From NCBI GenBank assembly GCA_019057865.1, contig JAHLWP010000010.1, forward strand, positions 54,086-118,085: a DNA stretch of 64,000 nt, in the 5' to 3' direction. This DNA is from Promethearchaeota archaeon (lineage in GTDB: Archaea; Asgardarchaeota; Lokiarchaeia; Sigyniarchaeales; SOKP01). The number at the start of each line of letters is the position of its first letter. The stretch's first letter is position 1. The notes beneath the pieces were generated by a model that did not search any database, was not told the origin of the DNA, and worked only from the letters and a program-made list of their open reading frames with translations. The translations under genes and the position numbers were made by a program. Positions 5,540 to 64,000 of the stretch are shown piece by piece.

Positions 5540-6327
5540 TTGTTTTCGTCCTCATTTGACAATTTCAGAAGTCCTTCATGGCCTCCGTATAAAATATCAA
5601 GTTGCTTAAGAAAAGCTTTCACACGATCAGACTTTGGTGAGACGAAGAAATGTTGCGGGGTTCCTCGTTCTATTATGACGCCATCACCGAGGAAAAGCAT
5701 TTCTGATGAAACAGCTCTTGCGAATCCCATTTCGTGAGTTACTACTATCATTGTAGTACCAGTTTTAGCAAGATCCAACATTGCTTGAAGTACTTCACCA
5801 ATCAGTTCAGGATCCAAAGCAGAGGTTGGTTCATCAAACAAAATAACTTCAGGCTCCATTACCAATGCACGTGCAATACCTACACGCTGTTGTTGACCAC
5901 CGGATAATTGTGCAGGATAATGATCAGCCCATTCCGCCATCCTTACTTGATGTAAAGCTTTCGATGCCTTCGAGCGAGCCTCTTCCTTTGATACACCTTT
6001 TACTCGGTGAAGACCGATACTAACGTTATCTATTGCTCTGAGATGCGCAAAAAGATTAAAATGTTGGAATACCATACCGATATTTGCTCGCATTTTGTTA
6101 AGATTGATTCCAGGCTCCATTAGATTCTGTTCCGAGAGATATACCTCTCCTTGGTCTGGTGGATCCAGCATATTGATGCAACGAAGCAATGTGCTCTTAC
6201 CAGAGCCGCTTGGTCCAAAGATAACCTTCACCTCTCGTTCCATTAACTCAAATGAGATCCCCTTAAGAACCTCCAATTCTCCATATGATTTCCACACATC
6301 AACGATGCGTAGCACGGATTTACCCAT
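5536..6327 (-). CDS. Polar amino-acid ABC transporter ATP-binding protein
   Basis: Walker [19 protein letters not shown] signature, [11 protein letters not shown]. Confidence 0.95.
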   Translation of the reverse strand: MGKSVLRIVDVWKSYGELEVLKGISFELMEREVKVIFGPSGSGKSTLLRCINMLDPPDQGEVYLSEQNLMEPGINLNKMRANIGMVFQHFNLFAHLRAIDNVSIGLHRVKGVSKEEARSKASKALHQVRMAEWADHYPAQLSGGQQQRVGIARALVMEPEVILFDEPTSALDPELIGEVLQAMLDLAKTGTTMIVVTHEMGFARAVSSEMLFLGDGVIIERGTPQHFFVSPKSDRVKAFLKQLDILYGGHEGLLKLSNEDENK

Positions 6328-9029: not shown

Positions 9030-10375
9030 GGTTTTTTCAACCCCTCCTCATTTGTCATTACTATAACCGCAGCATATGCCGCTCCAGGGCCTCCTATTGA
9101 GTGAGCAATAGCTCTGCCATTTTCAATTGTTTTTATTTGATGCTTTCCAGCATCCTCTCTAAGCTGAAGTGCTGCTTCACCTGTAGACATTATCCCGGTA
9201 GCACCAACAGCATGACCACATCCAATTAATCCACCGCAAGGGCAACATGGTAATTCACCATCTAACCATGGCCCCTCCCCTGGTTTTTCAAAGGATTTTT
9301 CAATCCATGGACCACCTTCCCCAAAAGGAACAAACCCAAGCTCCTCATAAGAGATGACTTCTTATCCAGAGAATATCGAACTGATATTCATTGTCCTGAG
9401 AAGGCATCATGGAGCTCTGCTAAATCAATTTGTTCCTTTATTTTATTATAGTCTAAGCCTGCCATCTTATACGCGGCTTTTGCAGCAAAAATATTTGAAT
9501 ATAACCTTCCCATATCTTCTCTATTTCCTATAAAACAATCGGTATTTGCTGCTGCGACACCAGTAATCCAAATCGGCTTTTCAATTTTTAATTCTCTTAC
9601 TTTTTCTTCACTTGCGAGAATTAATGCTGCTGATGCTTCTGAATATAAACAACAATCAAGCATCTTGAAGGGATGACAAATTATCCTTGAGTATAGGACA
9701 TCATCTAAGGAAATTTTCATAGGGGATTGTGCTTTTGGATTGAGCATAGCATTCCCATGGTTTTTTACGCTAACTTTAGCCAATTTTAACTAATTGTTAA
9801 GATTTAAAGCCATTTGTTCTTCGGTAGGATTACCGAATTCTTCATAATGGGCGTTTACCATAGAAACGTACGAGGTTGCTGCCATCATTCCCATAGGATA
9901 TTTACGAAATATGTAGAACTTACACCATTTTTTCGTAAGTCATATCAGTAGAATAGGCGATGGCATTCAAAACTTCAGGTGTCGTAGTTCCTGTTTGTTC
10001 GTCATAGCAATCATTGCATTTTTCGACTCCTATACATAAACATAAGTCAGATAAGCCAGAAGCTACTTCTGCAAAAGCCATTCGGACAGTATATCCTCCT
10101 GTTGCTCCTCCTGTTGCTATACGAGTACCAGGTTTATTATTCATCCCTATATAGGAATTACAAAAAATATCTGGCATAAATTGTCTTTCAAATAGCTCAT
10201 TATAGATTCCATATACCGTAGATTGTAAATCCTTATGAGTTATTTCAGCACCGTTATTATTTGCGTCCTCAAGTGCTAATTTTGTTGCATCATATGCTAA
10301 TTCAAAATATGTCTTATCTAAATACTGGGCTTTAAAAGGAGTAATTCCTATACCTATAATCGCAACTTTCTTCAC
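9026..10375 (-). CDS. Thiolase-superfamily (SCP-x/Ltp-like) protein, 4 exons (10375-9932, 9900-9806, 9775-9393, 9363-9026), 419 aa after removing three predicted BHB introns
   Basis: 1350 nt minus 31+30+29 nt = 1260 nt = 419 codons plus stop. Spliced junctions read DMTYE/YPMG, EEQMAL/VSVKNH and ELHDAFSGQ/EVISYEELG. C-terminal GGLIGCGHAVGATG. The stop overlaps the DUF35 ATG (ATGA). Confidence 0.88.
9364..9392 (-). other. Predicted BHB mRNA intron 3 of thiolase 1 (29 nt)
   Basis: mRNA: GAUGCCUUCU-CAGG-AC^A-AUGAAUAUC(AGUUC)GAUAUUCU-CUGG-AU^A-AGAAGUCAUC. Exon stem 9/10 bp; central helix has one A.G mismatch. Removal restores the frame. Confidence 0.75.
9776..9805 (-). other. Predicted BHB mRNA intron 2 of thiolase 1 (30 nt)
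   Basis: mRNA: AAU-GGCU-UU^A-AAUCUUAAC(AAUUA)GUUAAAAUU-GGCU-AA^A-GUU. Contains an in-frame UAG. Spliced product is MALVSVKNH. Confidence 0.85.
9901..9931 (-). other. Predicted BHB mRNA intron 1 of thiolase 1 (31 nt)
   Basis: mRNA: U-UACG-AA^A-AAAUGGUGUA(AGUUC)UACAUAUUU-CGUA-AA^U-A. Perfect 4-bp central helix. Spliced product is TYEYPMG. Confidence 0.85.
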
Positions 10376-61648: not shown

Positions 61649-62101
61649 TTATATTGGGCGAAAATATTCAATATCTAATATTCGCTTTCTTGGTTTTTCT
61701 TTAAAAACAGCTTTTACTTGCATACCCACTTTTAATTGTTTAGGATCTCCGATATTTATAATATGTACAATATCAGTGTCCGCACCATCTAATCTAATTA
61801 TTGCATAGGAGTAAGGTGGTTCAAGAGGCATTACTGGTGTTGAATGCGCAATTGTAGTAAAGCCTACAACTGTACCTTGATTTCCAACCTCTATCCATTC
61901 TTCCATTTTTTCAAAACATTCTACACAAATCATTCTGGGAGGAACAAATACTTTACTACACTTAGGACATTTTACACCCATAATTCTTTTATTTTTTCCA
62001 ATTTCGGTTATAAACCGTTCAACATATGCTCCTGCTGTGTGTTTGTAGGGTACTTTTATTTTTCCTCTAAATATTTTCTTTTCATCAATCAGGTTATCCA
62101 C
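61649..62101 (-). CDS. DUF35 Zn-ribbon/OB-fold protein
   Basis: GVKCPKCSKVFVPPRMICVEC, IRLDGAD. Confidence 0.92.
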   Translation of the reverse strand: MDNLIDEKKIFRGKIKVPYKHTAGAYVERFITEIGKNKRIMGVKCPKCSKVFVPPRMICVECFEKMEEWIEVGNQGTVVGFTTIAHSTPVMPLEPPYSYAIIRLDGADTDIVHIINIGDPKQLKVGMQVKAVFKEKPRKRILDIEYFRPI

Positions 62102-62114
62102 TTTTTCTCACCCT

Positions 62115-62603
62115 TTATGGTTTTTGTACCTCTCTAATAACTTTAAAGTATATTATATCCCCTATATTTCCTTTCCTTTCATCTTTAAATACAGCCTCAA
62201 CACGCATCCCTACTTTTAATTTAGTATAGTCCGTTTCATCTATAAAATGCATTGTAAAAGTATCAGCGCCATCTAATTTGAATAATGCATAGCCATAAGG
62301 AAAAGGACGTAGACCTCCTGTCTGAGGATCTACAAAAGGATAATTAACTACCGTGAAGCCATGCAAAGTTCCTTTTTTATCCAATTCAACTAGATCCTTT
62401 AACTCCATTTTAATAAAACATTCTGCACATACAGTTCTGGGTGGAAAATGCACTTTACCGCATTTTGGACACTTGCTTCCTAATAATTTTTTGTTTTCCT
62501 TTAGCTCTTCAAAAAATTTAACCGATAACTTACCTATGGAATACCTATAAGGTAGATCGGTTTTCCATTTAATCTCAAAAGGCTTTTCTTTCTGTTTGCT
62601 CAT
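62115..62603 (-). CDS. DUF35 Zn-ribbon/OB-fold protein
   Basis: GSKCPKCGKVHFPPRTVCAEC, KLDGAD. Confidence 0.92.
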   Translation of the reverse strand: MSKQKEKPFEIKWKTDLPYRYSIGKLSVKFFEELKENKKLLGSKCPKCGKVHFPPRTVCAECFIKMELKDLVELDKKGTLHGFTVVNYPFVDPQTGGLRPFPYGYALFKLDGADTFTMHFIDETDYTKLKVGMRVEAVFKDERKGNIGDIIYFKVIREVQKP

Positions 62604-62612
62604 ATTTTTTAT

Positions 62613-63809
62613 TCACCTCATAGGTTCTTTTCCTAATATTAGTATTTCTGTCCAAAGTGAACCGCCAAATCCCATTGCTAAAGCATTTTCTGCATCAGGT
62701 ACTTGACGTTTTTCACCTCTGCCCATTACTTGAGTTGCTGCCTCAGCTACTCGAATTAATGCTGTAGCACCTATAGGATTAGTACTCAATACACCTCCCG
62801 ATGGATTAACTGGTAATTCTCCACTCATTTCAGTAATTCCCTCATCTAACAACTTCCCTCCTTCACCAAATTTAGCAAATCCTAGGGCTTCTGTCCATGC
62901 TAATTCGCTCCAACTTGTGGGTTCATATATTTCAGCGACATCTAAATCTTTTATTGGATTAGTGATTCCTGCTTTTTTATAAGCTTTCTTTGAAGCAATC
63001 GTAGCTGTAGGGAGATTATACATTGCATCATCAGTCCCAAAGGTATAATAATGAGCAGTTTCTAAGGCTTTAAACCATGCCGGATTATCTGTTATCTTCT
63101 TAGCTTCTTCTTTATTTGCATAAATTAGAGCACATGCTCCTTCACTCTGTGGACAGCAATCATGTAATCTTAATGGATATGATATCATCTGTGAACTCAT
63201 AACATAATCTACAGTAATATCAGGCATTTGTAGATGTGCAAATGGATTATTAGCGGCATTACGACGATTTTTTACAGTAACTTTTGCTGCTTGTTCTGGT
63301 GTTGCGCCATATTTATCTTGATACATAGATGCCATAAGGGCTAGTGGACCGAGAGCACCAGCTAAAGATGGTCTTTCCCATACCGGATCAAATGCTGTTA
63401 TTATACCGGTAGTAGCTCCACCTTCTTTTAATTTTTCCCAACCAACAACTAAAACCTTGTTATAAATTCCTGAGGCAACATTGTGATAACCACATATAGC
63501 TAAGGAACTACCCGTTGTGCCACCTGTTGCAACCTTAACTACAGGTTTTAAATATCCAGGAGCTCCTTCAATTCCACAGAATAATTCAGAGAAATTAATT
63601 CCTTCAAAATGGTCCATTTAGTATTTAATCTCGAGATGAAATTAAATATTACCAATGACGATCGCATCAATCTCTTTAGGTTCAAGTTGAGCATCATCAA
63701 GAGCCATCTTTACGGCTTCGTATACCATCTCAGGGATATTAACATCTCTTCTCTTACTCCTAAATTTAGTCTGACCTATGCCGACTACGGCTACATCATG
63801 TCTCGGCGT
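62613..63809 (-). CDS. Thiolase-superfamily (SCP-x/Ltp-like) protein, 2 exons (63809-63648, 63617-62613), 388 aa after removing one predicted BHB intron
   Basis: Exon 1 reads (ACG)PRHDVAVVGIGQTKF...DAQLEPKEIDAIVIGN and joins MDHFEGIN... of ORF 62613..63617. VKNRRNA, AEIYEP, PVNPSGG, NPIGATA. Confidence 0.88.
63618..63647 (-). other. Predicted BHB mRNA intron of thiolase 2 (30 nt)
   Basis: mRNA: GGUA-AU^A-UUUAAUUUC(AUCUC)GAGAUUAAA-UACU-AA^A-UGGAC. 9-bp intron stem; in-frame UAA. Spliced product is IGNMDHF. Confidence 0.87.
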
Positions 63810-63816
63810 TTTAAAT

Positions 63817-63825
63817 TCCCTCCTT
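63817..63825 (-). promoter_or_regulatory. Shine-Dalgarno site for thiolase 2
   Basis: AAGGAGGGA, 7 nt upstream of ACG 63809. Confidence 0.65.
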
Positions 63826-64000
63826 ACTGTTATTATTAAAGTCTATTTTTATTTTCATATTTTCTTATTAAATCGTTCGTGTATTTAATACTTATTATAT
63901 TGTCAAAATAGACTATTCGATTTTTTTGTCTAATTCTTTTTTTTCTATATTAGTATTCAAGTATTTATTTTTTTTTCTATTAATTTCCGTGGTCGGAAAG

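What the first reader, a model, noticed from the sequence alone, without database searches (positions are those of the whole stretch)
63618..63647. Independent fourth mRNA micro-intron in a second thiolase 53 kb away
Central helix GGUA/UACU, bulges AUA and AAA, 9-bp stem, 5-nt loop, 30 nt. BHB-rule excision joins an unannotated 54-codon exon (VAVVGIGQTKF...IDAIVIGN) in frame to MDHFEG. It sits at a different position from the three introns in thiolase 1, so it is an independent insertion and the pattern is not confined to one locus.
Basis: partly seen in the sequence, partly recalled or inferred. Interest (0 to 1): 0.9.

Follow-up and report, generated by a model that had tools for sequence, protein, structure and literature searches.

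The report
Mobile tRNA-type intron in Asgard gene
A 30-base insert that breaks a thiolase-like gene of an Asgard archaeon is very probably a real intron cut out of the mRNA by the tRNA-splicing enzymes, and it has recently moved between genera next to a selfish DNA-cutting gene; the papers I could search describe this kind of splicing inside only one archaeal coding gene (cbf5).

Summary
Observation confirmed (minus strand). Removing 63618-63647 by the bulge-helix-bulge (BHB) rule restores IGN|MDHFEG, contiguous in 19 insert-free orthologs. The motif is the relaxed form, without an exon-side helix. Twenty distinct alleles from at least seven genera carry a homologous 30-nt insert at this site: 253/260 pairs kept, exon 1 under purifying selection (pN 0.07, pS 0.76). 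The genome encodes two-subunit EndA and RtcB; its single-copy uS12, RpoA' and aIF2-gamma genes carry similar inserts. No spliced RNA was found; the junction was not covered.

Corrections: the host is a Cys-less, Ltp3-like thiolase-fold gene with an ACG start, and the insert is not private. Intron-bearing alleles are polyphyletic (AU p=2e-6). Intron plus 288 nt of exon 2 are identical to a genome of another genus, while the rest differs by 20%. A free-standing LAGLIDADG gene lies about 300 nt upstream (join seen in a sister strain); it occurs at 4/18 intron-bearing and 0/19 intron-less loci. Best reading: a spliced mRNA micro-intron, probably spread by collaborative homing. This scan noted the intron class and the endonuclease link before on other DNA, including this genome.

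The parts
63618..63647 (-). 30-nt BHB-type micro-intron (two in-frame TAA; stem 63646-63638 with 63632-63624, loop 63637-63633, central-helix 3' strand 63623-63620)
63648..63809 (-). Exon 1, 54 codons from an ACG start; supplies the central-helix 5' strand (63653-63650) and two bases of the 5' bulge
   Evidence: purifying selection
63819..63823 (-). Shine-Dalgarno-like GGAGG, 9 nt upstream of the ACG
   Evidence: sequence; same spacing as in ATG-starting orthologs
62613..63617 (-). Exon 2, 334 codons; spliced product 388 aa, Cys-less thiolase-fold (Ltp3-like) protein
63330..63647 (-). Recently exchanged tract (intron + 288 nt of exon 2) identical to genome G114 of another genus; right breakpoint between 63339 and 63329
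62115..62603 (-). DUF35 (ChsH2 zinc-ribbon + OB-fold) partner gene 1
61649..62101 (-). DUF35 partner gene 2
63810..64000 (-). AT-rich spacer that replaces the usual ltp4-like upstream gene; beyond the contig end it leads to a free-standing LAGLIDADG gene (G000 C22:234-1259; 296 nt upstream of the ACG in sister strain L033)
   Evidence: the C7-C22 join is inferred from L033, not assembled in G000

Best explanation
The insert is an intron of the archaeal tRNA type inside a protein-coding mRNA. The pre-mRNA folds the relaxed BHB motif (shown by sequence and covariation). The two-subunit, specific-loop EndA cuts after the second base of each bulge and RtcB joins the exons (inferred from established archaeal tRNA/cbf5 splicing; both genes are present). 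The product is a 388-aa Ltp3-like protein started at an SD-led ACG (inferred). The intron has no ORF and cannot move alone. It spreads by DNA recombination between lineages (shown: polyphyly, identical cross-genus tract). The most likely driver is the adjacent free-standing LAGLIDADG endonuclease cutting intron-less alleles at or near the insertion site, as in collaborative homing (inferred; about 0.6 on its own).
For: Precise restoration against 19 intron-less orthologs. 20 distinct alleles, all 30 nt, 253/260 standard pairs; on 8 of them covariation was reached by 2/500 shuffles, and slid registers pair 29-41% against 96%. Exon 1 pN 0.074 vs pS 0.76 over 105 intron-bearing pairs. Sister strain L033: 4 synonymous, 2 conservative changes, intron unchanged. 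Same class in single-copy uS12, RpoA' and aIF2-gamma and in the canonical EF-2; 13 of 22 shift the frame. EndA alpha with Tyr-His-Lys and a loop aligning to the A. pernix specific loop, a second subunit, one RtcB; PMC5829648 reports this loop in Asgard and ties it to relaxed motifs. Mobility: AU p=2e-6 against one clade, 9 changes; 0/288 differences from G114 in the tract vs 144/714 over the 3' part; 5' vs 3' discordance against G033, p=2e-8, control p=0.72. Endonuclease at 4/18 vs 0/19 loci; 7 inserts (5 distinct sites) in 26 kb of aligned endonuclease flanks vs 0.34 expected.
Against: No read or contig shows the spliced junction from this strain. The exon-side helix is missing, so cleavage needs a relaxed-specificity enzyme whose activity in Asgard was not tested here. 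This copy starts with ACG and is separated from its ltp4-like partner, so it could be poorly expressed. 12 of 18 intron-bearing loci have ltp4 directly upstream and no endonuclease, including G114; the 4/18 vs 0/19 contrast is weak (p=0.046, kin not independent). Most G000 introns have no endonuclease of this family on their contig. Scattered presence could partly reflect repeated precise loss. Two alleles have a mismatch in the central helix (L190, L250).
Confidence: 0.88

Rival explanations
1. Split gene: a 55-aa N-terminal peptide and the 334-aa MDHF protein are translated separately and assemble, with no splicing.
For: Exon 2 starts with a natural ATG; the second codon of the insert is a stop in 20/20 alleles; gene callers annotate two ORFs.
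Against: No SD before the exon-2 ATG. It does not explain the fixed 30-nt length, the conserved BHB register or the compensatory changes. Same-class inserts elsewhere shift the frame in mid-motif, as in aIF2-gamma and RpoA'.
Confidence: 0.04
2. Pseudogene: a palindromic insertion plus loss of the ATG has inactivated a dispensable gene.
For: ACG start; operon broken from ltp4 (55); most orthologs lack the insert (44 of 55 genomes); the gene is not found with this query in most sampled genomes.
Against: Both exons are under purifying selection across intron-bearing alleles at near-saturated synonymous distance. At least ten intron-bearing alleles have ATG and an intact operon. Non-ATG starts also occur in intron-less alleles. 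The same class interrupts essential single-copy genes.
Confidence: 0.04
3. Translational recoding: ribosome bypassing (T4 gene 60 or byp type) or stop readthrough spans the insert.
For: A stop right after the first insert codon followed by a hairpin resembles a hop element (PMC8211752).
Against: No matched landing codon leads into the exon-2 frame: the only in-frame match runs into TAA. Junction repeats are under 3 nt in 19 of 22 inserts. Readthrough would need three different stop codons across alleles and cannot serve 13 frameshifting inserts.
Confidence: 0.03
4. Assembly artefact: the insert or the mosaic tract comes from a chimeric join in this metagenome-assembled genome.
For: Genome contamination 5.15% (7); the locus lies 380 nt from a contig end.
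Against: An independent assembly of a 97%-identical strain has the same insert, ACG and upstream endonuclease; 20 alleles from other samples. The mosaic breakpoint falls in a 10-nt interval, shorter than the 55-nt contig overlaps of this assembly, though that uses relatives as proxies.
Confidence: 0.01

Closest known systems
BHB intron in the cbf5 pre-mRNA of Crenarchaeota (Watanabe 2002; Yokobori 2009, PMC2738675)
   Same: Short ORF-less intron in a coding sequence; cut between the second and third bulge residues; often relaxed motif; host with hetero-oligomeric EndA.
   Different: Different phylum and host gene. One of at least 18 such inserts in this genome rather than a single gene. Evidence of recent cross-genus transfer and a neighbouring endonuclease. 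cbf5 splicing is shown by cDNA; this one is not.
EndA-processed element in the 5' UTR of Haloferax volcanii HVO_1309 (PMC7714728)
   Same: BHB cleavage of an mRNA by the tRNA splicing endonuclease.
   Different: That element is untranslated; here removal is needed to build the reading frame. That paper names cbf5 as the only other reported case.
Collaborative homing in phages (free-standing endonuclease beside an intron; described in PMC10448857)
   Same: [quoted passage not shown]
   Different: Cellular archaeal chromosome; LAGLIDADG family; 30-nt enzyme-spliced intron rather than the group I ribozymes of the phage cases (own knowledge); cleavage site untested.
Homing-endonuclease-encoding BHB introns of archaeal rRNA genes (own knowledge; not checked in a paper here)
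   Same: BHB splicing combined with LAGLIDADG-driven mobility.
   Different: There the endonuclease is inside the intron and the host is rRNA; here it is outside and the host is an mRNA.
Actinobacterial Ltp3/Ltp4 + DUF35 proteins of sterol side-chain degradation (PMC10398937 and its reference 17)
   Same: Pair of thiolase-fold genes plus DUF35 genes; no nucleophilic Cys; best profile PRK08313.
   Different: Score is below the curated cut-off (385 vs 514 for an intact ortholog); substrate unknown; no direct comparison with an Ltp3 sequence was run.

Membership tests
Archaeal EndA-type (BHB) intron | 4-bp central helix | tested here: met
   4/4 at one of three placements; kept in 18 of 20 alleles
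Archaeal EndA-type (BHB) intron | Cuts after the second base of each 3-nt bulge restore the mature sequence | tested here: met
   exact match to 19 intron-less orthologs; register test 17/22 vs 4.9% null
Archaeal EndA-type (BHB) intron | Intron-side helix with compensatory change | tested here: met
   9 bp; covariation 2/500 shuffles; both-side changes at three pairs among 20 alleles
Strict (canonical) BHB motif | Exon-side helix closing the second bulge | tested here: not met
   0 adjacent pairs here, 2 in most relatives: relaxed form only
Archaeal EndA-type (BHB) intron | Host has EndA able to cut relaxed motifs, and a ligase | tested here: met
   two EndA subunits; catalytic Y-H-K and specific loop aligned to A. 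pernix 3P1Z/3AJV; RtcB. Presence only, not activity
Archaeal EndA-type (BHB) intron | Spliced RNA observed | tested here: inconclusive
   no contig from an intron-bearing strain covers the junction
Archaeal EndA-type (BHB) intron | Cleavage by EndA in vitro | not testable with these tools
   needs bench work
Collaborative homing unit | Free-standing homing endonuclease gene adjacent to the intron-bearing gene | tested here: met
   two LAGLIDADG-like motifs, open 342-aa frame; Pfam PF14528 E=2.6e-4, just under cut-off; atlas 0.93 (99); 249-375 nt upstream in four lineages
Collaborative homing unit | Endonuclease found only with the intron allele | tested here: inconclusive
   4/4 endonuclease loci carry the intron, 0/19 intron-less loci carry it, p=0.046; 14 intron loci lack it in the DNA held
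Collaborative homing unit | Co-conversion tract around the insertion site | tested here: met
   318-nt tract identical across genera with a sharp right border; but exon 1 differs from G114 at 14/153 and G114 lacks the endonuclease
Collaborative homing unit | Endonuclease cuts the intron-less site and spares the intron allele | not testable with these tools
   needs a cleavage assay
Translational bypass element | Matched take-off and landing codons leading into the downstream frame | tested here: not met
Group I / group II self-splicing intron | Ribozyme core | tested here: not met
   30 nt; no Rfam match to E=1 in 63300-64000 (98)
Classical thiolase (host protein) | Nucleophilic Cys and GHP histidine | tested here: not met
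   the motifs read VATGGTTG and STNP
Ltp3 subfamily (host protein) | Reaches the curated cut-off of its best profile; ltp4 and DUF35 neighbours | tested here: inconclusive
   best profile PRK08313, below cut-off; neighbours present in orthologous loci

The most novel reading that the evidence does not exclude
Loki-type Asgard archaea run tRNA-type splicing as a general mRNA-splicing system, and ORF-less 30-nt introns invade their genes as partners of free-standing LAGLIDADG endonucleases: the intron destroys the enzyme's target without harming the gene, and the pair spreads between genera today. This locus would be a caught-in-the-act example.
Probability: 0.55. Interest if true: 0.9.

Novelty: new variant of a known kind. 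Interest (0 to 1): 0.82.

Why it matters
In the papers I could search, cbf5 is the only archaeal coding sequence with a BHB intron (PMC7714728, PMC2738675), and six searches found no report for Asgard mRNAs; most subscription journals are not covered. If real, the closest archaeal relatives of eukaryotes tolerate many mRNA introns, including in core translation and transcription genes, and these genes are mis-annotated as split or truncated. This locus adds a testable route of intron spread: a named enzyme, a defined intron-less target, and a recent cross-genus tract. Splicing and homing can each be tested in vitro without culturing the organism.

Tried and rejected
RNA test: runs X17, X18 and X19 give no contig across the junction from an intron-bearing strain. 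The X19 and X6 contigs that stop at 63617 continue into exon-1 sequence of intron-less relatives, and X6 is DNA, so they are not splicing evidence; any future joined read needs strain-diagnostic variants. The X18 RNA-library contig (63205-63512) matches G114 at 17/17 listed variants, a weak hint of transcription in that lineage only (DNA carry-over not excluded).

Motif-only genome scan: 239 candidates, mostly chance joins of adjacent genes; replaced by homology-first detection.

ACG as a sign of pseudogenisation: rejected, since ACG, ATT, ATA, GTA and TTG occur at this start in other alleles with and without the intron (69, 96). In a genome-wide check ACG replaced ATG in only 1 of 120 orthologs, so it is rare.

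'Recent private insertion': my first reading; overturned.

Exact look-up of exon 2 (57) and Rfam: nothing. The careful protein tree did not finish (quick tree only), so the DNA tree carries the phylogenetic claim; it omits L033 (too short) and L253 (out of register).

I made no more bulk requests; later loci are the match loci returned by the genome search and the look-up of encoding contigs.

No structure or complex prediction was run; none bears on the question.

Full report
The observation. On the minus strand, 63618-63647 is a 30-nt in-frame insert with two TAA stops. It separates a 54-codon frame from a 334-codon ORF that begins MDHFEG. The strand folds better than 197 of 200 shuffles. 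The exon-side helix of the strict motif is missing, so this is the relaxed form.

The organism and machinery. The genome is 4.26 Mb and 29% GC; close homologs are labelled Promethearchaeota and Lokiarchaeota. It encodes two EndA subunits. One has the Tyr-His-Lys catalytic residues and a loop that aligns with the Aeropyrum pernix specific loop; the other lacks the His-Lys pattern. PMC5829648 reports this enzyme type and loop in Asgard archaea and links the loop to cleavage of relaxed motifs. RtcB is present once.

The join is right. Ten orthologs in the genus (82-94% identical) read IGNMDHFEG without a gap, as do nine more. The two exons hit positions 5-54 and 57-386 of one profile. The product lacks the thiolase Cys and GHP His and is followed by two DUF35 genes. 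It is a thiolase-fold, Ltp3-like protein, a lead I took from earlier scan notes and only partly tested.

The insert is shared and constrained. Database homologs of 334-336 aa that begin at MDHF all traced to loci with a 55-codon ORF, a 24-nt gap and the same insert. A class-wide search found a 30-nt stop-containing insert in 11 of 55 genomes, in seven genera, and all ten others fetched have it at this site. Across 20 distinct alleles the length is always 30 and 253 of 260 pairs are standard. On eight alleles covariation was reached by 2 of 500 shuffles, and slid registers pair far less; relatedness inflates such tests. Exon 1 shows pN 0.074 against pS 0.76 among intron-bearing alleles. A 97%-identical strain shares insert and ACG, with mostly synonymous changes. 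Non-ATG starts occur in other alleles with and without the insert, so ACG does not mark a dead gene.

The class is genome-wide. Using homology alone to place inserts (paralogs plus 2.0 Mb of relative G006), I found 18 in this genome and 4 in G006. At the BHB register 17 of 22 have a 4/4 helix, against 4.9% by chance and at most 7 at other registers. Hosts include single-copy uS12, RpoA' and aIF2-gamma and the canonical EF-2; 13 of 22 shift the frame and 19 of 22 have junction repeats under 3 nt. Cells with these genes must remove the inserts, and neither readthrough nor matched-codon hopping can. This is the strongest indirect argument for splicing.

No direct RNA proof. Four runs were laid. 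None bridges the junction from an intron-bearing strain. Contigs that stop at 63617 continue into exon 1 of intron-less relatives, one of them in a DNA run, so the empty allele exists in the same habitats.

The intron moves. On a tree of the 3' part of the gene, intron-bearing alleles need 9 changes and their monophyly is rejected (AU p=2e-6); the quick protein tree agrees. This genome's copy is a mosaic: against its close relative G033 it differs at 85/414 bases 5' and 61/714 bases 3' (p=2e-8; control pair p=0.72). The intron and the next 288 nt are identical to G114, of another genus, which differs at 144/714 over the 3' part; the border lies between 63339 and 63329. The tract looks native to the G114 lineage, which makes this genome the likelier recipient. 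Exon 1 is closest to G114 but differs at 14/153, so more than one exchange is involved.

A likely driver. All 19 intron-less loci have the ltp4-like gene directly upstream. Here it lies on contig C22, about 5.6 kb from that contig's end, and the sister strain's contig joins C22 to this end of C7. The gene directly upstream encodes a 342-aa protein with two LAGLIDADG-like motifs. Homologs sit 249-375 nt upstream in three more lineages, all intron-bearing and all with non-ATG starts: 4/18 against 0/19, p=0.046. Flanks of 28 homologous endonuclease genes in other genomes hold 7 BHB-like inserts at 5 distinct sites in 26 kb of aligned sequence, against 0.34 expected at this genome's rate; one of the seven is this site. 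In this genome the fwdA-like intron lies 1.5 kb from a family member, and a 55-nt contig overlap puts the acs introns beside another. The arrangement matches collaborative homing as described in PMC10448857. Against it: most intron alleles have no endonuclease beside them today, and cleavage is untested. An earlier scan note on kae1 prompted me to look for the endonuclease.

Comparison and verdict. It works like the crenarchaeal cbf5 intron (PMC2738675) and meets every sequence-level feature of a relaxed EndA intron; spliced RNA is untested. PMC7714728 lists cbf5 as the only other reported case, and searches found no Asgard report. Earlier notes of this scan describe the class in this and other genomes and the endonuclease link at other loci; they are not independent support. 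Spliced intron 0.88; endonuclease-driven spread about 0.6; new variant of a known kind; interest 0.82.

Noticed in passing
window 9901-9931, 9775-9804, 9362-9390 (minus): The three inserts in thiolase 1: central helix 4/4, 4/4 and 3/4; homologs are contiguous at all three sites.
   Followed up: partly
L064:12613-12642, L065:16161-16190, L066:6488-6580: Thiolase-1 homologs in G076 and G025 share a further intron site with diverged sequence but the same central helix; G002 has two inserts a few codons apart.
   Followed up: partly
G000 C27:25030-25059, C27:30414-30478, C63:36100-36128, C82:40874-40903, C49:5260-5287 and 5689-5722, C28:11100-11130, C56:2607-2638, C75:2684-2714, C13:2735-2764, C24:539-582, C82:97-126 and 548-579, C3:127257-127287, C60:11315-11343: Further BHB-like inserts in uS12, RpoA', aIF2-gamma, EF-2, LeuRS, a Rab-like GTPase fusion, a roadblock protein, acs, an fwdA-like gene, a Zn-ADH (motif scan only) and others. 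The uS12 match is also 30 nt longer with one stop in G033 and G076.
   Followed up: partly
G006 C1:1129379-1129406, 1410020-1410049, 1505072-1505101, 1621948-1621977: Four inserts of the same kind in a relative, one in ribosomal protein uL11.
   Followed up: no
L208:1480-1511, L211:233-262, L213:1268-1297, L217:3390-3419, L222:224-253, L223:64-93: BHB-like inserts in genes flanking other LAGLIDADG homologs (aldolase-like, acyl-CoA ligase-like, phosphofructokinase-like).
   Followed up: partly
20 alleles of this intron: The second codon of the insert is a stop in all 20, using all three stop codons; it may be a fail-safe against translating unspliced RNA or a by-product of the stem.
   Followed up: no
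window 63807-63809; L196, L203, L253; G000 C54 near 167162: All four endonuclease-linked alleles start with a non-ATG codon (three ACG, one ATT); one other G000 gene has ACG behind an SD where its ortholog has ATG.
   Followed up: partly
G000 contig ends: 7 of 14 intron-bearing genes lie within 3 kb of a contig end (12% expected, p=5e-4), and most LAGLIDADG-family ORFs, several about 1000 aa long, also lie at contig ends.
   Followed up: partly
L225 (G018 C19): A LAGLIDADG homolog sits between an intron-less Zn-ADH gene and a duplicate of its last 36 codons, like a replaced gene end.
   Followed up: no
L253 (G106) exon 2 after codon 109; L251 (G099) upstream gene: G106 falls out of register in exon 2, and the ltp4-like gene of G099 is split into two ORFs; either may hold another insert.
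   Followed up: no
L190, L250: Two alleles have a mismatch in the central helix; in L190 it comes with a Gly-to-Asp change, possibly a decaying copy.
   Followed up: no
L033:686-10274: Upstream of the endonuclease the sister strain carries different cargo from G000: a four-gene cluster with an SMC-like ATPase (Wadjet-like by appearance, untested), an LRR protein and a kinase.
   Followed up: no
many inserts: Unrelated genes share nearly the same geometry (about 30 nt, 9-bp AU-rich stem, 5-nt loop), which may point to a common mechanism of origin.
   Followed up: no
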